NCBI GenBank assembly: GCA_036744635.1
Contig: DAIOHQ010000111.1
Span: forward strand, 1-14,667
DNA: 14,667 bases
DNA from: Tepidisphaeraceae bacterium
Lineage (GTDB): Bacteria > Planctomycetota > Phycisphaerae > Tepidisphaerales > Tepidisphaeraceae
Reading direction: 5' to 3'
Shown: in pieces, positions 906 through 14,667 of the stretch
How positions within the stretch are numbered: position 1 is the first letter of the stretch
Layout: the number at the start of each line of letters is the position of its first letter
Translations under genes and position numbers: made by a program
The notes under the pieces: generated by a model
Database searches by the model: none
What the model was told of the DNA's origin: nothing
Seen by the model: only the letters and a program-made list of their open reading frames with translations

Positions 906-928
906 AGGGGCGGGGAAACCCCGCCCCT
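906..928 (-). terminator. Intrinsic terminator for the minus-strand flotillin-like gene; it is a mirror copy of the 863-885 hairpin
   Basis: GGGGCGGGG-AAA-CCCCGCCCC (907-915 / 919-927) is extended by an A906-T928 pair. On the minus strand it is followed by CUUGUUUCG. It overlaps the stop codon at 927-929 of the convergent gene. Confidence 0.6.
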
Positions 929-3161: not shown

Positions 3162-3353
3162 GAGCTTCTCCTTAATTGTCATGACCAGCGGCCCCGGCCG
3201 CCCGCACAACGTCCCCATCATACCGTTCGCCCCTTCCCCTGCACTTACAACCCCGGCAAAATTCTCTAAGCGCGGCGCGGCGGGGCGCGGGCGGAAAGAG
3301 CGGATTTCTCGTTGCAGATTTCCTGCCTTATTTGCGCGGCATACGATTTGCCG

Positions 3354-3367
3354 ATAGTGTTCACTAT
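3354..3367. promoter_or_regulatory. 14-bp palindrome ATAGTG-TT-CACTAT abutting the -35 of the plus-strand promoter; a candidate operator
   Basis: A perfect 6+6 inverted repeat with a 2-nt spacer at 3354-3367. It lies 6 bp upstream of TTGACA (3374-3379), in the divergent intergenic region between the flotillin-like gene and the DUF2203-like gene. Confidence 0.3.
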
Positions 3368-3373
3368 GCGTGA

Positions 3374-3401
3374 TTGACACCATCGGATGCGATGTCATAA
3401 T
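3374..3401 (+). promoter_or_regulatory. Candidate sigma70 promoter TTGACA-N16-CATAAT for the DUF2203-like gene
   Basis: TTGACA at 3374-3379, a 16-nt spacer, then CATAAT at 3396-3401. It is about 80 nt upstream of the ATG at 3485. This is a near-consensus match in a GC-rich background. Confidence 0.45.
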
Positions 3402-3484
3402 CGCCGGTGGGTTGAAGATGTAGCGCATCGTCCCGTTTGTGCGAGCAGGCACCCCCGAGCCGCTCGCGAAGAAAGGCGGCATTT

Positions 3485-3922
3485 ATGGCCGGTCCACAGT
3501 TTGTCACTCCCCAACCGGTTCATCCGTCCCGTCCGCGCCGGCACTTCACGCTGGTGCAGGCCAACAAGACGCTGCCGCTGGTGAAACGGATCGTGGCGGA
3601 TATCGTTAGGTTGCACGATGAGGTCGCGGTCCTGCAGGCCAAGCTGGCCGGCGGCGATGCCGGCGCCGGCAAGAACCAGGAGACGCAAAAGGCGCTGGAG
3701 CGCGGCATCGAGCAGTTGCAGGCCTATGTCGATGAGCTGGCCGAAGTCGGCTGCGAATTGAAGGACTACCAGATGGGCCTCATCGACTTCGTCGGCCGCC
3801 ACCAGGGCCGCGACATCAACCTGTGCTGGAAGCTCGGCGAGGACAAAATCACCCACTGGCACGAAATGCAGGCCGGCGTGGCCGGCCGGCAGCCGGTGTC
3901 GCTTCTGGATGAAGGGGAATAG
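3485..3922 (+). CDS. Conserved hypothetical protein of about 145 aa. It resembles the DUF2203 family (coiled-coil N-terminal half, C-terminal …LCWKLGEDKITHWHE…GRQP motif)
   Basis: The ORF 3437..3922 starts at TTG in the track. The only ATG is at 3485 (MAGPQFVTPQ…), with GAAAGG about 9 nt upstream. The product has a conserved-looking C-terminal half (…CELKDYQMGLIDFVGRHQGRDINLCWKLGEDKITHWHEMQAGVAGRQPV…). The family assignment is from memory and not certain. Confidence 0.55.
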   Translation: MAGPQFVTPQPVHPSRPRRHFTLVQANKTLPLVKRIVADIVRLHDEVAVLQAKLAGGDAGAGKNQETQKALERGIEQLQAYVDELAEVGCELKDYQMGLIDFVGRHQGRDINLCWKLGEDKITHWHEMQAGVAGRQPVSLLDEGE

Positions 3923-3952
3923 TTCTCGAAGCGGAAAATTCGGAATAAGCCT

Positions 3953-3982
3953 CAACGGCTGGTCCTCCGGGACCGGCCGTTG
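3953..3982 (+). terminator. Stable hairpin 3' of the DUF2203-like gene (13-bp stem with one G-U pair and loop TCCG); a possible terminator lacking a clear U-tract
   Basis: CAACGGCTGGTCC-TCCG-GGACCGGCCGTTG lies 31 nt after the stop codon and is followed by TGCGTAAG, which is not U-rich. Confidence 0.35.
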
Positions 3983-4159
3983 TGCGTAAGAAGCCACTCT
4001 GGCCGGGCACGCCATTCTTTCGCGGCTCCGATCCGTGGCTGATCGAGGGCGTCGGGAACCTGCTGGAAAGGGCATACGTTCCTGCAGGGTGATGGCGGGC
4101 TTGTGGTGGGGGGAAAAGCGGGTAAGCTTTCCGCCTCTTTACCTTTAGGAGCAAGCACG

Positions 4160-5323
4160 ATGTCTCTGATTCCTCCGCATGGCGGGCAACTGGTCAATCG
4201 GGTTCTGCAGTCGGCGGCGGCCGAAAAGGCGGCCAAAGACGCCGCTTCCCTGCCCGCACTCACCCTTACCCCCCGTGAAGCGTTTGACCTGGAGATGATC
4301 GCCATTGGCGCCTTCTCGCCGCTGACGGGATTCATGGGGCAGGCCGACTTTCAGGGGGTTTGCAGGAACATGCGGCTGGCCAGCGGCGTGGTCTGGCCGA
4401 TTCCGGTGATCCTTTGCCCGCCGGATGAAATCACGGCGAAACTGAACACCGGCGACCGGGTGGCCCTGAAGGATGACAAGGGACGGCTGCTGGGAACCAT
4501 GACCATTCAGGAGAAATATCCCCACGACAAGGCGCTGGAAATTCCCAATGTCTATCGCACCGAGGATGAGGCCCATCCGGGCGTGAAGATCGTCAAGGCG
4601 CAGGGGAACACCTGCCTGGGCGGGCCGATCGACGTGATCACGCCGACGCACGAGCCGGAGTTTTCGGATTATCGCCTGCCGCCGGCGGCGACGCGGGCGG
4701 CGTTTGAGAAGAAGGGATGGTCAACGGTTGCGGCATTTCAGACGCGCAATCCGATTCACCGCTCGCACGAATATCTGACCAAGTGCGCGCTGGAGATGAC
4801 CGATGGGCTGCTGATTCACCCGCTGGTGGGCGAGACCAAGTCCGATGACATTCCGGCCAACGTGCGCATGGACTGCTACAAGACGCTGGTGGACAACTAT
4901 TACAACAAGGAGCGCACGATGCTGAGCGTGATGCCGCTGGCGATGCGCTACGCCGGCCCGCGCGAGGCTGTCCTGCATTCGCTGATCCGCAAGAATTACG
5001 GCGTGACCCATTTCATCGTCGGGCGCGATCACGCCGGCGTGGGAACGTACTACGGCACCTACGATGCGCAGAAGATTTTCGACCAGTTCGATTTGCCGAA
5101 GGATATCGGCGTCACCATCTTGAAATTTGAGCACACCGCCTGGTGCAAGAAGTGCGAGGCGATTGTCTCCAGCAAGACCTGCCCGCATGGCCCCGAGGAC
5201 AAGATCGCCCCCAGTGGAACCAAGGTGCGAGAGACGCTGAAGGCCGGTCAGCGGCCGCCGATGGAATTCAGCCGGCCGGAGATTGCCGATATTCTGATCA
5301 AGTGGGCGCAGGGGGCGAAGTAG
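4160..5323 (+). CDS. sat: Sulfate adenylyltransferase (ATP sulfurylase), 387 aa
   Basis: The product contains QTRNPIHRSHEYLTK, HFIVGRDHAGVG and YGTYDAQ, which are hallmark motifs of homo-oligomeric ATP sulfurylase (Sat/MET3 type), and has the N-terminal PUA-like domain. I chose the ATG at 4160 because AGGAG lies 8 nt upstream. The ORF-track start at 4103 adds a non-homologous leader. Confidence 0.92.
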   Translation: MSLIPPHGGQLVNRVLQSAAAEKAAKDAASLPALTLTPREAFDLEMIAIGAFSPLTGFMGQADFQGVCRNMRLASGVVWPIPVILCPPDEITAKLNTGDRVALKDDKGRLLGTMTIQEKYPHDKALEIPNVYRTEDEAHPGVKIVKAQGNTCLGGPIDVITPTHEPEFSDYRLPPAATRAAFEKKGWSTVAAFQTRNPIHRSHEYLTKCALEMTDGLLIHPLVGETKSDDIPANVRMDCYKTLVDNYYNKERTMLSVMPLAMRYAGPREAVLHSLIRKNYGVTHFIVGRDHAGVGTYYGTYDAQKIFDQFDLPKDIGVTILKFEHTAWCKKCEAIVSSKTCPHGPEDKIAPSGTKVRETLKAGQRPPMEFSRPEIADILIKWAQGAK

Positions 5324-5460: not shown

Positions 5461-5820
5461 TCAGTTGCTGGCCTGCAGAAACTCGGTAATCTTCCGCTGC
5501 TCTTCGCCGGTAAGATTGGCGCGGAAGCGCATGTGGCGAACGATAGTAGCCCATTGCGCGTCGCTGAAGCGCTCCGGCGGAGGAGCGTTGTGGCAGCGGT
5601 TACAGTTGTCCGTCCACAACTCGACGCCCGAGCGATCCGGTGGAGGCGGGAACAGGCCCAGCACCTTAGGGGGCGGGCCGGAATCCGATGCACCGGCGGG
5701 CCTGGCATCAGTGGATTGACAGCCCGCAAGGCCCAGAGCGGCGATGCCCGCCGCACAGATCAGCCAGCCGCCAAGACTCACAGCAAGTCTTGCGCGTTTT
5801 TGTTTTTGGTTGGGAAACAT
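5461..5820 (-). CDS. Monoheme c-type cytochrome lipoprotein (CXXCH = CNRCH), about 119 aa
   Basis: MFPNQKQKRARLAVSLGGWLICAAGIAALGLAGC is a lipoprotein signal peptide with an LAGC lipobox. The mature part carries CNRCH and …WATIVRHMRFRANLTGEEQRKITEFL. I chose the ATG at complement(5818..5820) because it is preceded by AAAGGAG with a 5-nt spacer. The GTG at 5835 in the ORF track would place the SD inside the coding sequence. Confidence 0.75.
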   Translation of the reverse strand: MFPNQKQKRARLAVSLGGWLICAAGIAALGLAGCQSTDARPAGASDSGPPPKVLGLFPPPPDRSGVELWTDNCNRCHNAPPPERFSDAQWATIVRHMRFRANLTGEEQRKITEFLQASN

Positions 5821-5831
5821 GAGAACTCCTT

Positions 5832-7217
5832 TCACAGCCCGATGCCCAATTGGATAAGGAAAGCGTTCTGATTCGGCCCCACCTTCTTGTCATCGAACTC
5901 ATAGGCGGCCTTGAGAACGAGGGAAGGGGTGAACCAGTAATCGAGGCCAAGCGTCAGGCGATTCTCGCGCTCGCCGCCCGGTGCGCTCAAGGAACTGGCC
6001 ACTCGGTCGAATCGCACGCCGTACTCGAGATTGCGGAAGAATTCGATGTCGGACTTCGTCGCCCGAAACAGGAGCTGCGCGTATCCCCCGTTGCGGTCAT
6101 TGCTGAACCGCACCGGGCCGAACCCCAGGGCGCCGCTGGGATCATAGGTGGCCCGGTCCACGGTGGACCAAGTCCATTCCGCCCGGAAATCGAACCTGCC
6201 TTTGAGCGGATCGACAATTTGCCGGTAATTCAGATCCACGGCCTGGAACAGCCCGCTGGTGCTCGGGAAACCGCTGGGGTTGACCTGGGCGCCCATGATC
6301 GAATACCCCATTTCCACGTTCGGCATCGGCAGGAATCCAAGGCGTCCGCCAACCGCTTTGTTGTTATTCAGATCGCTGAACTCGTCGAAATTGAGCTGTC
6401 CGGCGGCGTCAGGGTCGTTTGTTATCAGGTTTGGGCCGTTGCTGACGTACAGATCGTAGGTGACCTTCGCCGTGCTGATGGGAATGGCGCCGCGGACGAA
6501 GGCGCCGACGGCGTGTTCGGGAGCGATCGCGCTGTCACCAAATGCGAGGGGATCATCGGGGAACTTGTTGATCCAGGGCGGATCGAAATGGTTGTGGTAT
6601 ACGCCGAAAGGTGTAGTAAACAGGCCGCCGCCAACCATCATGTAGTCGTTGATGATGAACGATCCGTTGGCGATGGTCAGGTCGAAGCTCGTGGATGAGC
6701 TGTTGGTGTCATCGGTTTCAATACCGATGTCGAACGCCGCTTCGAAGAGGAACCGGTCGGTTGGCTTCCAGAGGATCAGGGGGGCGACGCCGGCGCTGAA
6801 GCTGGATTTCGTGCCCTTCTGCGTGGTAAAGCCGGCATCGGCGTCACCGGCGATGACCACGTTCTCCAATCCGCCGCGGTTTCGGTCGGTCGCGTCCTTG
6901 AGAACCTTGATTTCTTCTTCGAGTTCCTCGTTAGTCGGTGCCGAGGATTCGGCGGCGGCCGGGGCGGATTTCGCTGCTGCGGGAATCGCGGCGGCGGGCG
7001 CGGCTTGGACGGCGTTGCGTTTCTTCAACTCCTGCAATTCCTCCCGCATCTCCTTCTGCTCGCGGAGGACACGCTGATATTCCTGCCATGTCACATAGGG
7101 TTGGGTAGTCGCACCCGCCGGCGGTGCCGGATCGTCGGCGCGGGCTAAACCCGAAATCGCCACCAGCGCCACGGCCCCCCCTGCGGCCATGGCGAACATT
7201 CCAAACGCAGTCCTCAT
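5832..7217 (-). CDS. Outer-membrane beta-barrel protein (porin-like), 461 aa. It has a signal peptide, an N-terminal coiled coil and a C-terminal barrel
   Basis: The signal peptide is MRTAFGMFAMAAGGAVALVAISGLARA. A heptad-like segment (…WQEYQRVLREQKEMREELQELKKRN…EELEEEIKVLKD…) is followed by alternating hydrophobic/polar strands rich in G/Y/F/N/D, ending …NAFLIQLGIGL. GGAAGGAG lies 6 nt before the ATG at 7217. The architecture is reminiscent of DcaP-like or phosphate-porin-like proteins; this is inferred. Confidence 0.65.
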   Translation of the reverse strand: MRTAFGMFAMAAGGAVALVAISGLARADDPAPPAGATTQPYVTWQEYQRVLREQKEMREELQELKKRNAVQAAPAAAIPAAAKSAPAAAESSAPTNEELEEEIKVLKDATDRNRGGLENVVIAGDADAGFTTQKGTKSSFSAGVAPLILWKPTDRFLFEAAFDIGIETDDTNSSSTSFDLTIANGSFIINDYMMVGGGLFTTPFGVYHNHFDPPWINKFPDDPLAFGDSAIAPEHAVGAFVRGAIPISTAKVTYDLYVSNGPNLITNDPDAAGQLNFDEFSDLNNNKAVGGRLGFLPMPNVEMGYSIMGAQVNPSGFPSTSGLFQAVDLNYRQIVDPLKGRFDFRAEWTWSTVDRATYDPSGALGFGPVRFSNDRNGGYAQLLFRATKSDIEFFRNLEYGVRFDRVASSLSAPGGERENRLTLGLDYWFTPSLVLKAAYEFDDKKVGPNQNAFLIQLGIGL

Positions 7218-7286: not shown

Positions 7287-7778
7287 TCACCCGCCGCTGG
7301 ACGCTGTGCTGGGCGCCGGTTCGAGGGTGCGCACATAGTTCACGACCTTCCACCGGTCTTCTTCTTTTGGAATCAGTTTTTCGAACGTGGGCATCGGCTT
7401 GCGCCCGTTGGTGATCTTCCAAAACAATGCCCCGTCACTTTGCGCTGCGATTTTCGGGTCGGACAGATCATGGGGCTTGGGGTTGAGGTCCTTGGCGGCC
7501 TGCCCGTCGCCTTTTCCAAGCGGCCCGTGACAGGAGAGGCATTGCTTGAGGTAGACCTGCTTGCCGGCGGCGATCGACTTTTCGTCGGCGGGAATCGGAT
7601 TTTTCCGCCGCGCTGCGCGATCGGGGGCTTTCCACTCCTCCTCGGGCTTGGCCTCGTCGGCCCGCGTGCAAAGCGAGACGGCGCAGGTGAAAGTCAAGGT
7701 TGCGACAAAAATCATCGTCTTCCATCGCTTGAAGAACGCTTGCCCGCGCCTTAGAAAATTGCGTCGATTGAAACTCAT
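7287..7778 (-). CDS. Class I monoheme cytochrome c (CLSCHG … Met ligand region RKPMPTF), 163 aa, with an N-terminal export signal
   Basis: The CXXCH motif is CLSCH with …GALFWKITNGRKPMP… downstream. The N-terminus MSFNRRNFLRRGQAFFKRWKTMIFVATLTFTCAVSLC has a basic n-region and a hydrophobic core. A strong SD (GGAGG) lies 6 nt before the ATG at 7778. Confidence 0.8.
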   Translation of the reverse strand: MSFNRRNFLRRGQAFFKRWKTMIFVATLTFTCAVSLCTRADEAKPEEEWKAPDRAARRKNPIPADEKSIAAGKQVYLKQCLSCHGPLGKGDGQAAKDLNPKPHDLSDPKIAAQSDGALFWKITNGRKPMPTFEKLIPKEEDRWKVVNYVRTLEPAPSTASSGG

Positions 7779-8004: not shown

Positions 8005-8373
8005 TCAGGGATGGGGGGCGACGCGCGGAGGGGGCGCGAGGGTGGACTGATACTCCTTGCTGTCAAGAACGGCAATGCCGATGAAGAGCGCGACAAAGAA
8101 CGCCGCGGCGACCAGGACGACGCCGTGGAAGAGATTATCCCAACGGAGTTGCATGAAATAGACGGCCATGAGGGAAGCCTGAGCGGCGGCGATGACCAGG
8201 GCGAGCCAGAAGTTGACGATCGAGCCCATGTCAACGGAGCTGGCGGCGAGGGTGATGGCGGTCAGTGCAAGCAGGCCGGCGAAGACACCGATCAGCATCA
8301 GCGGCGAGGCGATGTGGATCTCGGCGGCGCTGGATGCTGCCTCGGAGGAGTGAGATTCAGTTGAGTTGGTCAT
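8005..8373 (-). CDS. Small 3-TM subunit of the oxidase (prokaryotic cytochrome c oxidase subunit IV-like), 122 aa
   Basis: Hydrophobic segments …IHIASPLMLIGVFAGLLALTAITLAA…NFWLALVIAAAQASLMAVYFMQLRWDNLFHGVVLVAAAFFVALFIGIAVLD resemble bacterial CoxIV/CtaF-type small subunits. Its start overlaps the subunit I/III stop in an ATGA junction (8370-8373), indicating translational coupling. Confidence 0.7.
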   Translation of the reverse strand: MTNSTESHSSEAASSAAEIHIASPLMLIGVFAGLLALTAITLAASSVDMGSIVNFWLALVIAAAQASLMAVYFMQLRWDNLFHGVVLVAAAFFVALFIGIAVLDSKEYQSTLAPPPRVAPHP

Positions 8374-11108
8374 GGTGGCTGTATCCTGGAATAAGAATGA
8401 ATCAGGTAGAGCAGCGGGAAGAGGAAGAACCAGATCAGGGTCATGAGGTGCCAGTAGAGGCCGACCAGATCGACCGGAGCGAAATAGGCGGGACTAATCT
8501 TGCGGCGGATGGCGCGAAGCATGAGCCAGATGACCAGGCCGATGCCGATTAGCACTTGCAGGGCGTGCAGGCCGGTCAGCAGGAAATAGAGGCTAAAAAA
8601 AGTGCTCACCCGGGCGCGCTCTGCTTTGGTCAAATCGAGATAGCCGAGATGGCGTCCCGCCGGCTCGGGGGCGGCCCCGGGCGGGGCGAGCCCGGGGGTG
8701 TTAAGAAAAGAGGGCTTGATCTTGGGCTCATCGGGCGTTCCGGCAAAAGGGTCCTGGTCGGCTGGGCCCTGGCGACGGGGTTCGGGGGGTTCGGCTTCTT
8801 CAGCGCCGGCCGATTTCTCGGCGGGCGTCTTGGGCTCAGCGGCGACCGGATCGATCTTGGATTCCTTGTGGTAGCGGTTTCTCGGGCCGACCCAGAGGTC
8901 GTGTTTCCACTTGTCGCGGTACTCGAATGACTTGATCCCCATGAAGCCCAAGCCGCCCAGCAGGGTGAGCCCCAGACAGAAAATCAGGCCGGCGCGGCGT
9001 CCGAGCTGGGCGCAGCGCAGGGCCAAGGCCATACAAAAGCTGCAGGCAAGGAGAACCGCGGCGGTGCCCGCCCCCTGCGTCTTGTTCAGGTACTGGTGGG
9101 CATAGGCGAAGACGGCCGGGTAATTGTGCCGGTAGGCGGCGTAGGCGCAACCGAGGCCGCCGAACATCAGCACCTCGGCGGCGATGAAAATCCACATGCC
9201 CAGCCTGCCGGCAGCATAGCCCTGCGGTTTGGTTGCAAAGGAATCGGCAAGGTCAGGCACAGGAGCCTGCGGCTCGACCGTGTCGGCGGGAAGATTGCTC
9301 GCATTCGCATGGTGTTTTCCATCCCCTCCGACCGCCCCGAGCTGGCGGACCCAACCATCTTGCGCGGAAGTAAATCTCCAGGCGCTCAGGTCATAGGGGT
9401 CGCCCAGGGATTCAGTCACCGGAAGATTCTGCGCCGGCGGGGGTGATGGGGAGAACCACTCCAGGGTATTGCCGCCCCAGGGGTTGGCCGGCGCCTTCCT
9501 CCCCCAGCGCAGAGAATGGAGCCAGCTCAGCACCACCATCACCAGGCCGACTGCCATCAGGTAGGCGCCGAGTGTGGAGATGAGCTGCAAGAGCTGGTAC
9601 TGCGGGTTGTAGGTGGCATGCCGCTCGGGCATGCCGCGGCTGCCGGCGATGAACAGGGGGAAGAATGTCCCGTTGAAGCCGACGAAGACAAGGAGGGCGG
9701 CGATCGCGCTCCATTTCTCGCTCACCATCCTGCCGGTGATCTTCGGCCACCAGTAGTACATGCCGCCCAGGAAGGCGAACAGGGTGGAGCCCGCCACCAG
9801 GTAGTGGAAGTGGGCGACGAGGAAGGAGGTGCCGATGAGATGGATGCTGGTGGCGATGGAGCCGAAGAACAGGCCGCTGAGGCTGCCGACGGTGAAGAGG
9901 GCGATGAATGCGATGGCGTAGAGCATGGGGGCCGCCAGCCGGATCGAGCCGCGGTAAAGGGTGGCGAGCCAACTGCAGATGGTGATGGCAAAGGGGATGG
10001 CGACGCTGAAGCTGAGCAGGCCGAAGATGGCATTGACCAGTCCGGAGGAGCCGCTGACGAACAGGTGCTGTCCCCATCCCAGGAAGCCGGCCAGGGCGAT
10101 GGTGAGGAAGGAGTAGGCGAGAAACGCATAGCCGAAGATGTGCTTGCGGCTGAAGGTGCAGACCAGTTCGCTGATGATTCCCATGGCCCCGAGGAGCATG
10201 ATGTAGCCGGCCGGGTGGGCGAAGAACCAGAAGAAGTGCTGGAAGAGGACCGGATCGCCGCCGAAGTTAGGGTCAAAGATGCCGACGTGCCAGAAGCGCT
10301 CGGCCGCGACGAGCAGAAGCGTTATTACCAGGACTGGGGTGGCGACGATCTGAACGATGCTGGCGCCGTACAGGCCCCAGAGGAACAGGGGCATGCGGAA
10401 CCAGGACATGCCGGGCGGGCGGAGGGTGTGGATGGAGACGACGAAATTGGCGGCGCTCAGGATGGAACTCAATGCCAGAATGGAAATGCCGAGAATCGCG
10501 AGGGTCGTGCAATCGCCGGCCTTTTCTGTGGCATAGGGGATGGAGAAGGTCCAGCCGCTGTCAAGCCCCCCCTGCCCTCCCCCCTTGAAACCGCCAGGGG
10601 GGGCGGGGAGGGTTTTGCCAAACGCAAAGTAGGCGACCCCGCTGGCCACGACATACAGGAGCACAAGTGCGCCCATGCAGTAAAGCTGGAAGCCCAGCCG
10701 GTTGATGCGGGGGAAGGCGACGTTGCGGGCGCCCAGCATCATCGGAAGGACAAAATTGCCGAGAACCGCGGGAATGCCGGGAATCATCACCAGGAAGACC
10801 ATCACCACGCCATGGAGGGTGAAAAGCTGGTTGTACAAATCCAAAGCCCGGGCGCGGGCGGCGGTGTCGGCGGAAGGGGGGATGGCGAGGCCTGGGGTGA
10901 GGAATTTGCTGCGCAGGATGATGGCCAGCAGCTCGCCGACGAACAGGAAGACGAGGATTGCGAGCATGTACATCAGGCCGATGCGCTTGTGGTCAAGCGA
11001 GAAGATCCACGAGCGGATGCCGCGAGGCTGAGTCAAGTAATTATCGCGCGCGGGCCCAGGGGGGGGCGCTGGCGGCGATAGCGAAGGTGTTGGGATGGCG
11101 GCTGGCAT
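8370..11108 (-). CDS. ctaD: Haem-copper oxidase subunit I fused to subunit III (912 aa). It has a non-canonical CuB site (WGQHLF) and lacks the D- and K-channel residues
   Basis: N-terminal motifs are …SWIFSLDHKRIG, …YNQLFTLHGVVMVF (helix II His), FWFFAHPAGY (CuB His + Tyr), VAHFHY (haem a3 / haem a His) and …FPLFIAGSRGMPERH. The C-terminal 275 aa are CoxIII-like (MWIFIAAEVLMFGG…YWHLMTLIWFFLFPLLY). GGGAG lies 9 nt before the ATG at 11108. Details of the atypical residues are given under findings. Confidence 0.9.
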   Translation of the reverse strand: MPAAIPTPSLSPPAPPPGPARDNYLTQPRGIRSWIFSLDHKRIGLMYMLAILVFLFVGELLAIILRSKFLTPGLAIPPSADTAARARALDLYNQLFTLHGVVMVFLVMIPGIPAVLGNFVLPMMLGARNVAFPRINRLGFQLYCMGALVLLYVVASGVAYFAFGKTLPAPPGGFKGGGQGGLDSGWTFSIPYATEKAGDCTTLAILGISILALSSILSAANFVVSIHTLRPPGMSWFRMPLFLWGLYGASIVQIVATPVLVITLLLVAAERFWHVGIFDPNFGGDPVLFQHFFWFFAHPAGYIMLLGAMGIISELVCTFSRKHIFGYAFLAYSFLTIALAGFLGWGQHLFVSGSSGLVNAIFGLLSFSVAIPFAITICSWLATLYRGSIRLAAPMLYAIAFIALFTVGSLSGLFFGSIATSIHLIGTSFLVAHFHYLVAGSTLFAFLGGMYYWWPKITGRMVSEKWSAIAALLVFVGFNGTFFPLFIAGSRGMPERHATYNPQYQLLQLISTLGAYLMAVGLVMVVLSWLHSLRWGRKAPANPWGGNTLEWFSPSPPPAQNLPVTESLGDPYDLSAWRFTSAQDGWVRQLGAVGGDGKHHANASNLPADTVEPQAPVPDLADSFATKPQGYAAGRLGMWIFIAAEVLMFGGLGCAYAAYRHNYPAVFAYAHQYLNKTQGAGTAAVLLACSFCMALALRCAQLGRRAGLIFCLGLTLLGGLGFMGIKSFEYRDKWKHDLWVGPRNRYHKESKIDPVAAEPKTPAEKSAGAEEAEPPEPRRQGPADQDPFAGTPDEPKIKPSFLNTPGLAPPGAAPEPAGRHLGYLDLTKAERARVSTFFSLYFLLTGLHALQVLIGIGLVIWLMLRAIRRKISPAYFAPVDLVGLYWHLMTLIWFFLFPLLYLIHSYSRIQPP

Positions 11109-11132: not shown

Positions 11133-12197
11133 CTATTTCGGCGGATTCTCTCCGTTATCAACCGCGTCGGCCGGCTGCGTGGCGGGCCCCGCGCGGGCGG
11201 TAGAGGCAGTCGTGGGCGCGCCGTACACGCTCTTTGACTTCATCCACAGGATGAGGGCGTCGATGTCGCGGTCCTTGAGCGTGCCTTGGTAACTGGGCAT
11301 CACGTTTTCATATCCTTCGACGATCCTGGCGCCCGGCCGCACGATCGACTCACGGAGGTAGTTCTCATCGGCCAGCACTTGCGTGCCCCCCCCTCCCCCC
11401 TTCAGCGGTTGCTTCGAGCCATAGAGATCCTTGAGCGATGGCCCGATCAGGCGCGAACCGTCGTCGGTATGGCACTGGTTGCAGCCGCGTGTGTTAAAGA
11501 ACATTTTGCCGGCCTCGGCGGGGCTCATCACTCTTGCCCAGTCGGACGCCTTCTCCAGCCAGGCGTCGAAATCGCTCTGTTCCTGAACGATGACCTTGGC
11601 AGACATCCCTGAGTGGTCAGTGCCACAATACTCAGCGCAGCAAGCGTCGAAAGTTCCGGTCTCGGTGGTCTGCACCCAGAGGCTGTTGTAACGCCCCGGC
11701 ACGGCATCCTTCTTGACGCGGAAGGCCGGGAGATACAGGTCGTGAATGACGTCCGCGCTGCTGAGCACCAGGCGGACCGGAATGCCCCTGGGCAGGTGAA
11801 GTTCGCCGTCCGAATAGCCGTTGGGATAGGTGAAGGACCATTTCCACATCTTGCCGCTGACCTGGATCTCGTAGGCGTTGGGGGGGACGACGCTCATGTG
11901 CAGATACCCCTCGAAGCCCGAATAGAAGACCATGAGCACGATGAGGGTGGGGAGGATCGTCCAACTCACCTCCAGGGCTGTGCTGTTGCTCGGGGACTTG
12001 GCCATAGGTTTGTCATCGGGGCCGCGGTAGCGATAGCGGATGACGAAGACCGCCAGTAGCGCGAAAATCACCGTCGTCACGATGACCGAGATGCCCCCGA
12101 TGAGATAGAAGAGCCAATCAACGTCGGCGGCGATGGTGGAGGCGCCCCGGGGCAACCAGAACGACTCGCTCGAATTGGCCAGCAATATGGAGAGCAT
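11133..12197 (-). CDS. ctaC: Oxidase subunit II with a CuA centre and a C-terminal fused monoheme cytochrome c domain (caa3-type), about 354 aa
   Basis: …FWLPRGASTIAADVDWLFYLI…, the CuA ligands …DVIHDLYLP…CCAEYCGTDHSGM (H…C-x-E-x-C-G-x-x-H-x-x-M), then the cytochrome c domain CNQCH…NVMPSY. The start is uncertain: ATG at complement(12195..12197) as annotated, or the TTG at 12227 overlapping the upstream stop as in the ORF track. Confidence 0.85.
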   Translation of the reverse strand: MLSILLANSSESFWLPRGASTIAADVDWLFYLIGGISVIVTTVIFALLAVFVIRYRYRGPDDKPMAKSPSNSTALEVSWTILPTLIVLMVFYSGFEGYLHMSVVPPNAYEIQVSGKMWKWSFTYPNGYSDGELHLPRGIPVRLVLSSADVIHDLYLPAFRVKKDAVPGRYNSLWVQTTETGTFDACCAEYCGTDHSGMSAKVIVQEQSDFDAWLEKASDWARVMSPAEAGKMFFNTRGCNQCHTDDGSRLIGPSLKDLYGSKQPLKGGGGGTQVLADENYLRESIVRPGARIVEGYENVMPSYQGTLKDRDIDALILWMKSKSVYGAPTTASTARAGPATQPADAVDNGENPPK

Positions 12198-12223
12198 GGT
12201 GTTCAACTCATCGGGGGTACAGG

Positions 12224-12571
12224 TCAATCCGACGTACTCGTCGTCGGGCTCGTTGTCGGTCGTGTTGTCGGGCTCGTTGTCGGCAGCCTGCCGCCATTGG
12301 CGAGCAACAGCTTCATCGCCTCATCGATCGGGATCGCCACGGTCTGGTGCTGCCGATCCACCCATCGGTAGGAGTTGATCTTCTCCAATTGGCCGGCCCG
12401 CAGGTTCGCCAGCCAGCGGACGGGGGTATCATCCCACTTCGCAGCCGTCTCCTGGTGGACTTCCTGAAGGAACCATCCCTGGACCCCGATCACCAGCACG
12501 ATCAGGAGGAAACCGGCGACGGCGCCGATCACCAGGATGCGAGCGATATTGACTTCTTGATGCTTTGCCAT
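12224..12571 (-). CDS. Small single-TM protein with a Thr/Pro-rich C-terminal tail, about 115 aa. It may be an accessory subunit of ACIII or the oxidase
   Basis: MAKHQEVNIARILVIGAVAGFLLIVLVIGVQGWFL (one TM helix), then …WDDTPVRWLANLRAGQLEKINSYRWVDRQHQTVAIPIDEAMKLLLANGG and the tail RLPTTSPTTRPTTSPTTSTSD, which is encoded by a tandem DNA repeat. No SD is visible. The upstream extension in the ORF track overlaps the actF stop. Confidence 0.45.
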   Translation of the reverse strand: MAKHQEVNIARILVIGAVAGFLLIVLVIGVQGWFLQEVHQETAAKWDDTPVRWLANLRAGQLEKINSYRWVDRQHQTVAIPIDEAMKLLLANGGRLPTTSPTTRPTTSPTTSTSD

Positions 12572-12620: not shown

Positions 12621-14057
12621 TCACATGTTTTCGAATGCCACCGACTCCACGAGCCGGGGGTCCATTCTTGGCCGCAGGCTGTGCCGGGCGAGCAGGCGCA
12701 CAAACGCGGCCAGGAAAATCCCGCCGATGCCTACGAAGGTCACCACGTCCAGAAGGCCGAAGTACGCCTTGCCATCGAGTTCGGGAACGATAAGCCAGTA
12801 GAGGTCGATCCAATGGAACACCAGCAGCCAAACCGCCCAAAACGCCAGCGCCGTCTTGCGGCGCTTGACGTGGCGGGAGAGGAGCCCGGCAAAGGGGATC
12901 AGCAGATTGCCAAAGAGCAGGGCGATGGCGACGCCGCTCCAGACATTGGCGCCGCCGTGGGCGGTGCTGGCCCCGCGCCGGACCAGCCAGCCGGTTTCTT
13001 CCGGGATGCTGGCGTACCAGATGAGCATGTACTGGCTGAAGGCGATGTAGCCCCAGAAGAAGACAAAGCCGAAGAGCCATTTGCCCAGGTCATGGTAATG
13101 CTCGTTGTTGACGCTGCGTTGCAGGTATCCCCAGTGCTGCATGAGCATCAGGATCAGGATAAGCGTGGCCAAGCCGCTAACCACCGAGCCGGCAAAGAGG
13201 TAAACGCCGAAGATGGTGCTGTACCAGTGCGGGTCGAGCGACATGACCAGGTCAAAGACAGCAAAGGTGAGCGTCAGCCCGAGCACAATGAGCGCAGGGG
13301 CGCTGAGCGTCTGCATGCGCATGGTGGCGGCGGCGGCGGCGGAGGGGGAGCCGCTGATGTCCTGCTTCCAGGATTGCCGCCAGTACCAGTGCCCCATCAG
13401 TGACCAGACCACGAAATAGCACAGGATGCGGGCGATAAAGAAATGGCCGTTGAGCCAGGAGCGCTTGGACAGGGTCAGCTCATCGGGCGGCTGCACGCCA
13501 TGGGCGCTGGGATGCTCCTCGAGTTGTGGGGCGGCGGAAAAGGGGTCAGACCCCGTTGTGCGCAGCACCCTTGGGGCCGTTCCGGCAACGGGGTCTGACC
13601 CCTTTTCCGCCCCCTTTTCCGCCCCTGACCCCTTTTCCGCCCCGAGCTGGTGTGGAATGGGTTGGGCCCCCTGGGCCCAGCGATACAGATCGCCGTGGCC
13701 AAGCGCCACCGAAATCAGGATCGGCGCCGACAAAGCCAGCAGGATCGGCATGGTTGCCCCCAGCGCCTCGGCCACCCGGCGCACGCTGACGCTCCAACCG
13801 GCGCGGGTCAGGTGCTGGATCAGCACGAAGAAGATCGCTCCGAGGGCGATGGTCAGGAAGAAACAGAAGCTGACCAGATAGGTGAAAAAGAAGCGGCGGA
13901 AGCTGGGATCGATGACATAGCCCAGGAGCAGGGAGGCGAGCAGGCCAACGATGCCGGCCACGCTGGCCGTGCGGTAGGCGGGCCAGGCGCTGGCCGCCAG
14001 GTTGAGCCTCTCGCGCGGGGCAGGGGGGGTCTCGGATTGTTCTGCGTGTGCTGACAA
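12621..14057 (-). CDS. actF: Alternative Complex III membrane subunit ActF-like (NrfD/PsrC-family polytopic quinol-binding subunit), about 478 aa
   Basis: It has about 10 predicted TM helices (…VAGIVGLLASLLLGYVI, FFFTYLVSFCFFLTIALGAIFFVLI, …HWYSTIFGVYLFAGSVVSGLATLILI, …LFGFVFFWGYIAFSQYMLIWYASIPEETGW…). It immediately follows actE, as in actABCDEF operons. The ORF-track start at 14312 overlaps actE by 222 nt. The first in-frame start after the actE stop is the TTG at complement(14055..14057), preceded by a G-rich stretch with GGAG. The start is uncertain, and the family call is from memory of ActC/ActF features. Confidence 0.62.
   Translation of the reverse strand: MSAHAEQSETPPAPRERLNLAASAWPAYRTASVAGIVGLLASLLLGYVIDPSFRRFFFTYLVSFCFFLTIALGAIFFVLIQHLTRAGWSVSVRRVAEALGATMPILLALSAPILISVALGHGDLYRWAQGAQPIPHQLGAEKGSGAEKGAEKGSDPVAGTAPRVLRTTGSDPFSAAPQLEEHPSAHGVQPPDELTLSKRSWLNGHFFIARILCYFVVWSLMGHWYWRQSWKQDISGSPSAAAAATMRMQTLSAPALIVLGLTLTFAVFDLVMSLDPHWYSTIFGVYLFAGSVVSGLATLILILMLMQHWGYLQRSVNNEHYHDLGKWLFGFVFFWGYIAFSQYMLIWYASIPEETGWLVRRGASTAHGGANVWSGVAIALLFGNLLIPFAGLLSRHVKRRKTALAFWAVWLLVFHWIDLYWLIVPELDGKAYFGLLDVVTFVGIGGIFLAAFVRLLARHSLRPRMDPRLVESVAFENM
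13533..13641. repeat. In-frame repeat cassette inside actF: a 26-bp perfect inverted repeat (13533-13558 / 13586-13611) plus 3 tandem copies of CCCTTTTCCGCC
   Basis: GCGGAAAAGGGGTCAGACCCCGTTG… and …CAACGGGGTCTGACCCCTTTTCCGC are exact reverse complements separated by 27 bp. They are followed by …CCCCTTTTCCGCC CCCTTTTCCGCC CCTGACCCCTTTTCCGCC. On the coding (minus) strand this encodes the low-complexity loop …GAEKGSGAEKGAEKGSDPVAGTAPRVLRTTGSDPFS…. Confidence 0.6.
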
Positions 14058-14089: not shown

Positions 14090-14667
14090 CTACTTCAACT
14101 TCTCCAGCGTCTGCGGCGGTACGGCCTGCGCCGGCGCCTCCTGGCTTAGCTGCAATGCGCGGAGGTAGGCGACAATTGCCCAGCGATCCTCCACCGGAAT
14201 TTGGGCGCCGTAACCGGGCATGTTGCGGATGCCGTTGTTGATCGTGTTGTACAAGTGCCCATCCGGCCGGCCGCGTACGGTCTCGCCGTGCAGGTCGGCG
14301 GCGGGCGTCCACTGCGCTTCGGACTTCACCTGCAGCTCAAGGGCCCGCTCGTTGACCGGCCCATGGCCGTAGCCGTCCAGGCCGTGGCAGGTGGCGCAGT
14401 AGATATTGAATCGCTGCTGGCCGCGCTTCAGAAGATGCTCCGTGAGTTTGATTTGCGGCGGCAGACCGTCGAAGAAATGCGCATCCCACGTTCCCGCTTC
14501 CTCGTTGAGTTTCCGGGAAAATCCGCGGTAGTAGTGATCATCTTCCTGCAATTGCCCGCGGGCGACCGACCCTTCGATGACCGGGCGGTCGGCCCGGCTG
14601 TCAGCGAAGATCGGACTGAACACCTGGGCCCGATACCCGGGCTGTTTGTCCATATCCTGAAACAGAT
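14090..14667 (-). CDS. actE: Alternative Complex III monoheme cytochrome c subunit ActE, 5'-truncated by the window end
   Basis: …RGQQRFNIYCATCHGLDGYGHG…GHLYNTINNGIRNMPGYGAQIPVEDRWAIVAYLRALQLSQ matches the characteristic ActE signature (CXXCH followed by …Y..I.NG…M..Y……RWAIVAY.RALQ). The reading frame stays open upstream of the ATG at 14653 to the window edge, and no signal peptide is present yet, so the true start lies beyond 14667. Confidence 0.8.
   Translation of the reverse strand, partial: LFQDMDKQPGYRAQVFSPIFADSRADRPVIEGSVARGQLQEDDHYYRGFSRKLNEEAGTWDAHFFDGLPPQIKLTEHLLKRGQQRFNIYCATCHGLDGYGHGPVNERALELQVKSEAQWTPAADLHGETVRGRPDGHLYNTINNGIRNMPGYGAQIPVEDRWAIVAYLRALQLSQEAPAQAVPPQTLEKLK

What the first reader, a model, noticed from the sequence alone, without database searches (positions are those of the whole stretch)
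8370..11108. The oxidase catalytic subunit has a CuB ligand His replaced by Gln, and all canonical proton-channel residues are missing
I aligned the 912-aa subunit I/III fusion by eye to bovine / R. sphaeroides subunit I.

- **Conserved.** The helix II His (…FTLHGVVMVF), CuB His240 and the cross-link Tyr244 (FFAHPAGY), and the His376/His378 pair (VAHFHYLV) are all present.
- **CuB HH motif changed.** The invariant W-A-H-H-M-F motif (CuB ligands H290/H291) reads W-G-Q-H-L-F here. The Gln codon is CAG at complement(10068..10070) and the His codon is CAC at complement(10065..10067). I confirmed this directly from the DNA.
- **D-channel residues lost.** The D-channel Asp (GAPDMAFPR) is Asn here (GARNVAFPR). 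The helix VI Glu (HPEVY) is Ala (HPAGY), with no YS substitute as in A2-type oxidases.
- **K-channel residues lost.** The K-channel Lys (AIPTGVKVFSW) is Thr (AIPFAITICSW).
- **Subunit II intact.** Subunit II keeps a complete CuA site and a fused cytochrome c domain.

An A-family-like architecture (I+III fusion, CuA, subunit IV) is thus combined with a modified binuclear centre and no pumping channels. This is the pattern reported for divergent, non-pumping HCO families, some proposed to be NO reductases in which one CuB His is replaced by Asp or Asn. A Gln at this position and the linkage to ACIII could represent an undescribed variant. Four independent substitutions make a single sequencing error an unlikely explanation, although Q to H alone would be one nucleotide.
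Basis: partly seen in the sequence, partly recalled or inferred. Interest (0 to 1): 0.85.

Follow-up and report, generated by a model that had tools for sequence, protein, structure and literature searches.

The report
Degenerate cytochrome oxidase attached to ACIII
This soil planctomycete gene encodes a cytochrome oxidase core that has lost a copper-binding histidine (now glutamine) and its key proton-channel residues yet is still kept by selection. It belongs to a wider, apparently undescribed set of "hollowed-out" oxidases encoded next to alternative complex III (ACIII) and routinely annotated as ordinary oxidases.

Summary
Profile alignments to solved A-family oxidases, without nearby indels, confirm five changes. 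These are HH→QH (Q347, codon CAG at 10068-10070), D-channel Asp→Asn, no Glu or YS gate, K-channel Lys→Thr, and an intact CuA plus cytochrome c subunit II.

It is not a sequencing error. Five protein clusters at 59-78% identity form a 100%-bootstrap clade nested inside normal ACIII-linked A2-type oxidases of Phycisphaerae. All five share these losses (Gln in four, Arg in one). Within-clade dN/dS is about 0.2-0.3.

The NO-reductase reading gains no support:
- The active-site Tyr is kept.
- No acidic ligand has appeared.
- Ancestry is A-family.
- No denitrification genes lie nearby.

The sister subclade has also lost its CuA cysteines and its low-spin haem histidines. The operon's SCO1 copper-chaperone gene is absent from every divergent cluster but present in 75/75 normal ones. 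Subunits I, III and IV now evolve faster than the ACIII subunits, the reverse of normal.

Similar degenerate subunit I proteins recur elsewhere. One is an independent acidobacterial lineage, and 41 of the 150 nearest 50%-identity cluster representatives are of this kind.

Most likely this is a non-pumping, catalytically crippled oxidase module retained as a partner of ACIII. A new catalytic class is not excluded.

The parts
8370..11108 (-). Fused subunit I + III gene (912 aa). The COX1 domain covers about residues 1-590 and the COX3-like domain about 625-912.
   Evidence: ORF. Pfam COX1 5e-119 and COX3 1e-06. PDB phmmer best hit is 2yev_A, the Thermus caa3 I+III chain, at 9e-100. AF2 model pTM 0.83, and all top 50 Foldseek PDB hits are A-family subunit I. 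The 912-aa start is supported by N-terminal homology to P0002-P0004. NCBI annotates an 888-aa version.
10065..10070 (-). Q347-H348 (CAG CAC), in place of the CuB HH pair.
   Evidence: Gln in 4 of 5 clade clusters and Arg in the fifth. His in all 115 normal neighbours.
10722..10724 (-). N129 (AAC), in place of the D-channel entrance Asp.
   Evidence: The clade has N/N/G/S/G and the normal relatives are 100% Asp.
10203..10223 (-). F296-A297-H298-P-A300-G-Y302. The A2-type Tyr-Ser gate is lost and there is no Glu. CuB His298 and the cross-link Tyr302 are kept.
   Evidence: S297 is Ala in all five clade members.
9975..9983 (-). T376-I-C378. The K-channel Lys is replaced by Thr, and a clade-wide new Cys sits two residues later.
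9621..9626 (-). E495-R496, in place of the conserved PRR arginine pair that contacts the haem propionates.
   Evidence: The role of the Arg pair comes from established knowledge of A-family oxidases.
9804..9812 (-). H433-F-H435, the haem a3 and haem a axial histidines. Both are kept in this lineage.
11133..12197 (-). Subunit II (354 aa) with a complete CuA site (His152, C187-A-E-Y-C-G-T-D-H-S-G-M) and a fused cytochrome c domain (C239-NQCH).
   Evidence: Pfam COX2, COX2_TM and cytochrome c. NCBIfam CoxB scores 175 bits against a cut-off of 148. Motifs read directly.
8005..8373 (-). Subunit IV (COX4_pro), overlapping the stop codon of the I/III gene.
   Evidence: Pfam 2e-10.
12224..12571 (-). 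Small single-helix protein conserved after actF. COX2 follows it directly, and no SCO1/SenC gene lies between them.
   Evidence: Synteny by tblastn. SCO1 is present in 75/75 normal loci with enough upstream DNA and in 0 divergent clusters.
12621..14057 (-). ActF-like membrane subunit of ACIII (478 aa as called in GCA_036565285.1).
   Evidence: 72-79% identical to ActF of L001, which sits in a full actABCDEF cluster.
14090..14667 (-). ActE, the monohaem cytochrome c subunit of ACIII (CATCH). It is cut off by the window end.
   Evidence: Pfam cytochrome c. 84% identical to ActE of L001.

Best explanation
**What it is (shown).** This is the catalytic subunit of an ACIII-linked, A2-type caa3 oxidase lineage of Tepidisphaeraceae (Phycisphaerae). 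It has stopped being a proton-pumping O2 reductase.

**Ancestral losses (shown).** The ancestor of a small clade lost:
- the D-channel Asp and the Ser of the YS gate;
- the K-channel Lys;
- residues around the haem propionates;
- the first His of the CuB HH pair (now Gln);
- the SCO1 copper-chaperone gene of the operon.

**State of the window's lineage (shown).** Both haems and CuA still have their ligands.

**How it most likely works (inferred).**
- It probably still binds its haems and accepts electrons from ACIII through the subunit II cytochrome c domain.
- Its binuclear centre is crippled, with weak, altered or absent copper binding.
- It has no canonical route for substrate or pumped protons.
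- It is retained mainly as a structural and electron-relay partner of ACIII.
- At most it acts as a slow, non-pumping electron sink.
For: **Residue losses** rest on indel-free profile alignments and on the DNA itself.

**A real, monophyletic clade**
- There are five 90%-identity clusters among 5.8 billion, separated from normal relatives by a clear score gap.
- NJ bootstrap support is 100/100, and the clade is nested in normal Phycisphaerae oxidases.
- All five share the losses at sites invariant in 115 normal relatives.

**Not a pseudogene**
- All reading frames are intact.
- dN/dS is 0.17-0.32 within the clade.

**Relaxed constraint on the oxidase core only**

| Comparison | ACIII subunits | COX2 | COX1 | COX3 | COX4 |
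|---|---|---|---|---|---|
| L001 vs L003, dN | 0.036-0.060 | 0.053 | 0.114 | 0.162 | 0.229 |
| L001 vs L003, % identity | 89-93 | 90 | 81 | 73 | 62 |

In normal operons COX1 is the slowest-evolving or joint-slowest gene. It is 63-78% identical where ActE, ActF and COX2 are 41-65%.

**Stepwise loss of redox centres in the sister subclade (P0002, P0003, P0039)**
- A 26-aa deletion removes the helix II haem-a His in P0002 and P0003; P0039 has Asp at that position.
- HFH has become HFD or HFY in two of them.
- The CuA cysteines are lost.
- The cytochrome c CXXCH motif and a cofactor-complete ACIII are kept.

**SCO1/SenC** is present in 75/75 normal clusters and in none of the divergent ones.

**The same syndrome recurs elsewhere**
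- It appears in an independent acidobacterial lineage and in P0273 and P0276.
- It also appears in 41 of the 150 nearest 50%-identity cluster representatives.
- All three of the lineages with enough flanking DNA are ACIII-linked and lack SCO1.

Against: - In the window's own lineage every haem ligand, two CuB His residues, the cross-link Tyr and all CuA ligands are kept. This is what a still-working redox enzyme would look like.
- Gln is the commonest replacement at this position (17 of 41 divergent representatives). It is kept in four of five clade members, which hints at selection for a specific side chain.
- Purifying selection is still substantial.
- No biochemical data exist.
- The structural or relay role is an inference.
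- I could not show that the host genome carries another terminal oxidase.
Confidence: 0.5

Rival explanations
1. It is a new catalytic class of haem-copper enzyme. A His2-Gln (plus Tyr) site next to the high-spin haem binds Cu or another metal. It reduces a substrate that needs no proton pumping, such as NO, H2O2 or another small oxidant, using electrons from ACIII via cytochrome c and CuA.
For: - The window lineage keeps all haem and CuA ligands.
- Gln is conserved in 4 of 5 clade members and arose independently in an acidobacterial lineage.
- Gln is the modal replacement, at 17 of 41.
- There is a precedent for a viable His replacement: gNOR has Asp in place of an active-site His (PMC11214002).
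- dN/dS is below 1.
Against: - The active-site Tyr is retained, whereas all described NOR families lack it.
- No acidic FeB-type ligand has been gained.
- No nir, nor or nos neighbours are present.
- Relatives replace the other active-site ligands haphazardly: H298 becomes Q, R or N; H433 becomes Q, S or A; Y302 becomes F or V. They also lose CuA and haem a. A tuned active site would not be expected to do this.
- H→Q is a single transversion. My metagenome scan looked only for Gln, so recurrence in that scan alone is biased.
- The oxidase core evolves faster than its ACIII partners.
Confidence: 0.2
2. It is still an ordinary O2 reductase, perhaps of low activity or non-pumping. Gln or a water molecule completes the CuB coordination. 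Protons arrive by alternative, lineage-specific routes, as in the B and C families, which lack a D-channel.
For: - The cross-link Tyr, two CuB His residues, both haem sites and CuA are kept.
- The D-channel Asn residues and the Ser at the K-channel Thr position remain.
- The fold is indistinguishable from A-family oxidases.
Against: - From established mutagenesis of R. sphaeroides aa3 and E. coli bo3 (my own knowledge, not checked here), D132N, K362M and CuB-His substitutions each nearly abolish turnover. Here all three are combined, together with loss of the gate residue and of an Arg at the haem propionates.
- The SCO1 gene has been lost from the operon.
- Sister lineages have clearly abandoned CuA and haem a.
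- No compensating conserved ionisable residues appear along either channel.
Confidence: 0.15
3. It is an artefact: a sequencing or assembly error at one codon, or a decaying pseudogene.
For: - Q versus H is a single nucleotide (CAG versus CAC).
- The three database copies of this exact protein may derive from the same reads: the DNA is identical over 7367 nt.
Against: - The same Gln and the same set of other substitutions occur in P0002, P0003 and P0004. These are 59-78% identical and come from unrelated samples.
- All frames are intact and dN/dS is 0.17-0.32.
- Synteny is conserved.
Confidence: 0.02

Closest known systems
A2-type caa3 cytochrome c oxidase encoded downstream of ACIII (Thermus thermophilus caa3, PDB 2YEV; Rhodothermus marinus ACIII-caa3 supercomplex)
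   Same: - Best sequence match is 2yev_A at 9e-100.
- Same 12-helix fold.
- Subunit I+III fusion, and subunit II with CuA plus a fused cytochrome c.
- Operon order actABCDEF-COX2-COX1-COX3-COX4.
- Phylogenetically nested among such oxidases.
   Different: - One CuB His is Gln.
- There is no D-channel Asp, no YS gate and no K-channel Lys.
- The first Arg of PRR is lost.
- The SCO1 gene is missing from the operon.
- The oxidase subunits evolve faster than the ACIII subunits.
gNOR, a proposed NO reductase family (Murali et al. 2024, PMC11214002)
   Same: - It is a haem-copper superfamily member in which one of the three active-site His residues is replaced.
- It lacks the canonical A-family proton channels.
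   Different: - gNOR has Asp rather than Gln.
- gNOR lacks the active-site Tyr.
- gNOR derives from the B-family.
- Its cupredoxin subunit lacks CuA.
- Here Tyr and CuA are kept and the ancestry is A2-type.
NO dismutase (NOD), qNOR-like, of 'Ca. Methylomirabilis oxyfera'
   Same: Per my own recollection (not checked here), one metal-ligating His is replaced by an amide side chain (Asn).
   Different: - NOD belongs to the qNOR/C-family branch.
- It has no CuA subunit, no Tyr and no ACIII linkage.
Pseudoenzyme subunits retained in complexes (general concept)
   Same: - Catalytic residues are lost in a patchwork, lineage-specific way.
- Fold, reading frame, synteny and purifying selection persist.
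- The partner subunits stay tightly conserved.
   Different: - No such case has, to my knowledge, been described for haem-copper oxidases or ACIII.
- In the window lineage most cofactor ligands are still present.

Membership tests
A-family (A2) haem-copper O2 reductase | Subunit I sequence and fold match the A-family best | tested here: met
   Pfam COX1 5e-119. All 50 PDB sequence hits are A-family subunits I or III. All top 50 Foldseek hits are A-family, with query-normalised TM 0.73-0.80. NCBIfam CtaD_CoxA scores 540 bits, below the equivalog cut-off of 670.75, while the normal neighbour P0005 scores 663.
A-family (A2) haem-copper O2 reductase | Phylogenetic position within A2-type oxidases | tested here: met
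   NJ tree: the clade has 100/100 support and is nested in Phycisphaerae/Tepidisphaerales YSHPAVY-type oxidases. The method is distance-based only.
A-family (A2) haem-copper O2 reductase | Six invariant His residues (two for haem a, one for haem a3, three for CuB) | tested here: not met
   Five of six are present. The first His of the HH pair is Gln347.
A-family (A2) haem-copper O2 reductase | Helix VI Tyr that cross-links to the CuB His | tested here: met
   The H298-x3-Y302 spacing is present. Whether the covalent cross-link forms cannot be tested here.
A-family (A2) haem-copper O2 reductase | D-channel: entrance Asp plus a Glu (A1) or Tyr-Ser (A2) gate | tested here: not met
   N129 replaces the Asp and F296-A297 replaces YS, with Ala at the Glu position.
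A-family (A2) haem-copper O2 reductase | K-channel Lys | tested here: not met
   T376.
A-family (A2) haem-copper O2 reductase | CuA site in subunit II | tested here: met
   His152 and C187-AEYCGTDHSGM.
A-family (A2) haem-copper O2 reductase | O2 reduction coupled to proton pumping | not testable with these tools
   This needs purified enzyme or membranes.
Divergent NO reductases (eNOR, bNOR, sNOR, nNOR, gNOR; Murali et al. 2024) | Active-site Tyr absent | tested here: not met
   Tyr302 is present and invariant in the clade. The criterion comes from PMC11214002.
Divergent NO reductases (eNOR, bNOR, sNOR, nNOR, gNOR; Murali et al. 2024) | Affiliation with the B-family (or C-family) branch | tested here: not met
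   Nested in the A2-type A-family. No B-family, C-family or NOR chain appears among the PDB hits at E<=0.001.
Divergent NO reductases (eNOR, bNOR, sNOR, nNOR, gNOR; Murali et al. 2024) | gNOR: Asp replaces an active-site His, and the cupredoxin subunit lacks CuA | tested here: not met
   The replacement is Gln, not Asp, and CuA is complete.
Divergent NO reductases (eNOR, bNOR, sNOR, nNOR, gNOR; Murali et al. 2024) | cNOR/qNOR/nNOR-type Glu ligand for FeB | tested here: not met
   No clade-wide gain of an acidic residue at or near the binuclear-centre motifs. The Tyr occupies the i+4 position after H298.
Divergent NO reductases (eNOR, bNOR, sNOR, nNOR, gNOR; Murali et al. 2024) | Denitrification gene neighbourhood | tested here: not met
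   No nir, nor or nos genes in the window or in L001, L003, L109 or L110. Contigs are short, so this is weak evidence.
Divergent NO reductases (eNOR, bNOR, sNOR, nNOR, gNOR; Murali et al. 2024) | NO reductase activity | not testable with these tools
   This needs biochemistry.
ACIII-caa3 'superoperon' | actABCDEF immediately followed by COX2-COX1-COX3-COX4 | tested here: met
   The window holds ActE (cut), ActF, the small protein, COX2, COX1/3 and COX4. Clade members L001 and L003 show the full actA-F set with 5+1 haem motifs.
ACIII-caa3 'superoperon' | SCO1/SenC copper-chaperone gene between the act genes and COX2 (typical of the normal relatives) | tested here: not met
   Present in 75/75 normal loci with enough upstream sequence. 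Absent from the window, L001-L005, L088, L106, L109 and L110.

The most novel reading that the evidence does not exclude
The His→Gln change marks a convergently evolved, catalytically competent new class of haem-copper enzyme. It would derive from ACIII-linked A2 oxidases in at least two phyla (Planctomycetota and Acidobacteriota). Its Gln-modified binuclear centre would carry out non-pumping chemistry on something other than O2, such as NO, peroxide or another oxidant, or would act in gas sensing. ACIII alone would conserve the energy.
Probability: 0.15. Interest if true: 0.85.

Novelty: new variant of a known kind. Interest (0 to 1): 0.6.

Why it matters
**Annotation and ecology**
- COX1 genes like this one are annotated as 'cytochrome c oxidase subunit I' or 'cbb3-type'.
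- They pass Pfam COX1 by a wide margin.
- They are therefore counted as markers of aerobic respiration in genome and metagenome surveys.
- This protein, and a surprisingly large and diverse set of relatives, lack residues that mutagenesis has shown to be essential for O2 reduction and pumping. The set includes 41 of the 150 nearest 50%-identity cluster representatives.

**Bioenergetics**
- If these are retained pseudo-oxidases, ACIII needs its oxidase partner for more than electron disposal. Possible reasons are assembly, stability, or use of the tethered cytochrome c as an electron exit.
- That bears on the debated role of ACIII-oxidase supercomplexes.

**If instead they are active**
- They would be the first haem-copper enzymes derived from the A-family with a non-His ligand at the binuclear centre.

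Tried and rejected
**Sequencing error: rejected.** The Gln and the accompanying substitutions are shared by diverged homologues from other samples.

**Pseudogene: rejected.** All ORFs are intact and dN/dS is 0.17-0.32.

**Mis-alignment hiding a His: rejected.** The HMMER alignments to four solved structures are indel-free around each motif.

**Membership in the NOR families: rejected.** Tyr is kept, ancestry is A2-type and CuA is present.

**Searches that added nothing**
- A scan of 185,579 GTDB species-representative genomes found 80 normal relatives at 58% identity or less. None was a member of the clade.
- Four full-text literature searches found no description of ACIII-linked oxidases lacking CuB or channel residues.

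**Does the source MAG have a second, normal oxidase? Inconclusive.**
- I compared NCBI protein accessions of the nearest hits.
- None shares the HEY86... series of GCA_036565285.1.
- The MAG is fragmentary.

**Shared accessory cassette? No.**
- I asked whether the 461-aa porin-like protein downstream in the window (5832..7217) matches the CXXCH beta-barrel-like protein next to the acidobacterial divergent COX1.
- There is no significant similarity; the best E-value was 0.048 in a two-sequence BLASTP.

**Clade-specific COX3 loop? No.** The conserved loop motif 'AGTxDEPKIKP' in the COX3 part also occurs in a normal relative, L008.

**P0039 N-terminally truncated? No.** The reading frame extends upstream to an MPAV... 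start, so this is a gene-calling artefact.

**Structure model.** It confirms the fold only.

Full report
**1.

The minus-strand ORF 8370..11108 encodes 912 aa. Pfam gives COX1 at E=5e-119 (residues 42-517) and a COX3 C-terminal match (residues 835-902).

phmmer against all PDB chains returns only A-family subunit I or III chains. The best is the Thermus caa3 I+III fusion, 2yev_A, at 9e-100. No B-family, C-family or NOR chain is found at E<=0.001.

The printed HMMER alignments have no indels around the motifs:

| Query | Reference | Meaning |
|---|---|---|
| WGQHLF | WAHHMF | first CuB His of the HH pair is Gln |
| GARNVAFPR | GARDVALPR / GAPDVAFPR | D-channel Asp is Asn |
| FFAHPAGY | FYSHPTVY / FFGHPEVY | no Glu and no YS gate |
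| IPFAITICSW | VPTGVKLFNI / IPTGIKFFNW | K-channel Lys is Thr |

- The DNA reads ...tgg gga CAG CAC ctg ttc... This places Q347 at 10068..10070 and H348 at 10065..10067.
- H99, H298, Y302, H433 and H435 are present.
- Subunit II (11133..12197) has a full CuA site and a CNQCH cytochrome c domain.
- An AlphaFold2 model (pTM 0.83) matches only A-family subunit I structures in its top 50 Foldseek hits.

One nuance applies. The D-channel Asn residues and a Ser at the K-channel Thr position remain, so 'all' channel residues missing is slightly too strong. On the other hand further functional residues are gone. The first Arg of the PRR motif is Glu495, D421 is Ser, Y428 is Ser and Q485 is Leu.

**2. 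It is a lineage feature, not an error.**

- The source is a Tepidisphaeraceae MAG. The window is identical over 7367 nt to GCA_036565285.1 contig DATCNL010000867.1.
- Among the 120 nearest 90%-identity clusters, 115 are canonical A2-type oxidases. They have YSHPAVY, Asp, HH and Lys, are about 590 aa long, and are not fused to COX3.
- Five clusters carry the same substitutions: query/P0001, P0002, P0003, P0004 and P0039. The pattern is D→N/G/S, S→A, H→Q (four) or R (one), and K→T/Q.
- A profile built from the five retrieves no further member among 5.8 billion clusters.
- None occurs in 185,579 GTDB species-representative genomes.
- In an NJ tree the five are monophyletic (100/100). They are nested within Phycisphaerae/Tepidisphaerales oxidases and split into (query, P0004) and (P0039, (P0002, P0003)).
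- Pairwise dN/dS within the clade is 0.17-0.32, so these are not pseudogenes.

**3. What the relatives reveal.**

*Operon structure.* The clade's operons are actABCDEF-small-COX2-COX1(/3)-COX4.

*Further cofactor loss in the sister subclade.*
- Subunit I of P0002 and P0003 has a 26-residue deletion that removes the helix II haem-a His; P0039 has Asp at that position.
- Two members also change the second haem-a His (HFD, HFY).
- Subunit II has lost the CuA cysteines (FDAYFAEYGGNNY, YSADYGG, YSAEYGG) but keeps the cytochrome c CXXCH.
- The ACIII in these operons keeps all five ActA and one ActE haem motifs and the ActB cysteines.

*Missing copper chaperone.*
- Normal relatives have a SCO1/SenC gene between the small protein and COX2 (Pfam).
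- It is present in 75 of 75 normal loci with enough upstream sequence.
- It is present in none of the divergent clusters.

*Reversed rates of evolution.*
- In normal operons COX1 is the most conserved or joint most conserved gene. It is 63-78% identical where ActE, ActF and COX2 are 41-65%.
- In the clade the order is reversed. For L001 versus L003, the Act proteins are 89-93% identical, COX2 90%, COX1 81%, COX3 73% and COX4 62%. For the window versus L001, ActE is 84%, ActF 79%, COX2 72%, COX1 70%, and COX3 and COX4 60-61%.
- dN for L001 versus L003 is 0.036-0.060 for the Act genes, 0.053 for COX2, 0.114 for COX1, 0.162 for COX3 and 0.229 for COX4.
- The oxidase core is therefore under relaxed, though real, constraint. 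ACIII and subunit II are tightly kept.

**4. The same syndrome recurs elsewhere.**

*Metagenome scan.* A DNA-pattern scan for WGQH[LM]FV[ST]G found other haem-copper oxidase (HCO) lineages with Gln at this position.

*Acidobacterial lineage.*
- One group lies among Bryobacteraceae-like A2 oxidases. Nine of the 120 nearest clusters belong to it.
- It shows the same combination: D→G/S, YS→YA/YV, H→Q (eight) or V (one), K→T/I/M/N, and PRR→PGR/PIR/PSR/PNR.
- Some members also replace H240 or the haem a3 His with Gln.
- It does not join the window's clade in any of 100 bootstrap replicates.
- It sits behind an ACIII cluster whose COX2 has an intact CuA site.

*Exhaustive search.* phmmer against 1.84 billion 50%-identity cluster representatives gives the least biased view. 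Of the 150 best representatives, 41 lack His at this position:

| Site in the 41 divergent representatives | Residues found |
|---|---|
| Position 347 | Q 17, T 5, G 4, E 3, V 3, S 2, Y 2 |
| D-channel Asp | almost all lost (N 19, G 10) |
| K-channel Lys | lost, mostly to I, V or L |
| Cross-link Tyr | lost in 18 |
| Haem a3 His | lost in 19, of which Q 12 |
| Low-spin haem His residues | mostly kept (35/37 and 38/41) |

*Further examples.* Two more such proteins were inspected, P0273 and P0276. Both lie in act-COX operons without SCO1. Each 90%-identity cluster is small, with 1-5 members.

**5. Interpretation.**

*Shown.*
- Ancestry is from ACIII-linked A2 oxidases.
- The key ionisable residues of both proton pathways, residues at the haem propionates, one CuB ligand and the operon's copper chaperone have been lost.
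- Purifying selection continues.
- Constraint is relaxed specifically on subunits I, III and IV.
- Further cofactor ligands are lost in a patchwork manner in close and distant relatives.

*Inferred.*
- Proton-pumping O2 reduction has been abandoned.
- The module is kept because ACIII, which forms a supercomplex with caa3 with ActE next to the subunit II cytochrome c (PMC5928083), still needs it. It may serve as a scaffold or as an electron relay.
- In the window's own lineage all haem and CuA ligands persist, so slow non-pumping turnover or a new chemistry cannot be excluded.
- The predominance of Gln is suggestive. However, Gln is also the most conservative single-nucleotide replacement of His, and the representatives are not phylogenetically independent.

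**6. Comparison with the known.**

- Murali et al. 2024 (PMC11214002) define the new NOR families by absence of the active-site Tyr and place them on the B- or C-family branches.
- gNOR is described there as the first HCO with an active-site His replaced (by Asp), and it has a CuA-less subunit II.
- The present protein fails these criteria. Tyr is present, ancestry is A2-type, CuA is present, the replacement is Gln, and there are no denitrification neighbours.
- It also fails the defining residue set of A-family oxygen reductases.
- It is best filed as a degenerate derivative of an A2-type caa3 oxidase: a new variant of a known kind.
- Four full-text searches found no prior description. The held library is incomplete, so prior mention elsewhere cannot be ruled out.

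**7. Verdict.**

| Item | Assessment |
|---|---|
| Observation | confirmed |
| Crippled or pseudo-oxidase retained with ACIII | about 0.5 |
| New catalytic class | about 0.2 |
| Residual O2 reductase | about 0.15 |
| Artefact | about 0.02 |
| Interest | 0.6 |

The feature is real and recurrent, and it matters for how COX1 genes are read in metagenomes. Its function remains unresolved.

Noticed in passing
L001 10001-12523 and 8935-9966; L003 9866-11551 and 8815-9840; L086: The sister subclade of the window's protein (P0002, P0003, P0039) goes further. A 26-aa deletion removes the helix II haem-a His in P0002 and P0003, and P0039 has Asp there. HFH has become HFD or HFY in two members, and subunit II has lost the CuA cysteines. 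The fused cytochrome c and a cofactor-complete ACIII are retained.
   Followed up: yes
window 12197-12224 (junction between the small protein and COX2), compared with L008 8120-8911 and L027 8097-8927: Normal ACIII-oxidase operons carry a SCO1/SenC copper-chaperone gene just upstream of COX2 (75/75 loci). It is absent from every divergent cluster examined.
   Followed up: yes
L092, L094, L104, L105, L106 (P0152, P0165-167, P0178, P0180, P0188, P0225, P0260): An independent acidobacterial (Bryobacteraceae-like) lineage of A2-type COX1 shows the same set of substitutions, including His→Gln. In three loci the gene lies next to a conserved three-gene cassette on the opposite strand. The cassette comprises a ~400-470-aa protein, a CarboxypepD_reg-domain protein and a ~545-595-aa CXXCH beta-barrel-like protein. 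In L106 the cassette is inserted between COX2 and COX1.
   Followed up: partly
L089 1-1206 (233-kb contig Ga0208191_1000004); L093 and L097: More distant COX1 homologues have Gln at two of the three CuB positions (FGQPEIY or FAQAEVY, plus WGQHMF). L089 sits in an otherwise ordinary-looking oxidase operon. ORFs there that I read by eye as CtaA- and CtaB-like (not scanned against any profile) are followed by COX3-like and subunit IV-like genes.
   Followed up: no
P0273-P0420: Of the 150 nearest 50%-identity cluster representatives, 41 lack the first HH histidine and almost all of these also lack the D- and K-channel residues. The low-spin haem histidines are mostly kept, while the binuclear-centre ligands vary widely. 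This is a large, rare and diverse 'dark' set of COX1-like proteins.
   Followed up: partly
window 7287-7778 (-), 5832-7217 (-), 5461-5835 (-): Downstream of subunit IV lie three genes on the same strand. They are an extra monohaem cytochrome c (CLSCH), a 461-aa protein with no Pfam match that looks like an outer-membrane beta-barrel, and a small CNRCH cytochrome with a weak DHC match. These may be further electron carriers of the same unit. The cytochrome c is also present on L088.
   Followed up: partly
window 8370-11108 (start region 11037-11108): NCBI and JGI call an 888-aa product starting at residue 25 of the 912-aa ORF. Homologues P0002-P0004 align from the upstream Met, which supports the longer form. 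Likewise the mechanical ORFs for ActF (563 aa) and the small protein (159 aa) are longer than the annotated 478 and 115 aa.
   Followed up: partly
window 9975-9977 (C378) and 9654-9656 (L485): Two substitutions are fixed in all five clade members at sites invariant in normal relatives. They are Phe→Cys two residues after the lost K-channel Lys, and Gln→Leu in the FFPQF motif. Their meaning is unknown.
   Followed up: no
L087 2017-2025; L003 11551-11564: Subunits I and III are fused in the query, P0002 and P0003. They are separate genes in P0004 and P0039, so the fusion state has changed more than once within this small clade.
   Followed up: partly
window 927-5323: Apparently unrelated neighbours: an 851-aa SPFH/Band-7 protein (927-3482, -), a DUF2203 protein (3437-3922, +) and an ATP sulfurylase (4103-5323, +).
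   Followed up: partly
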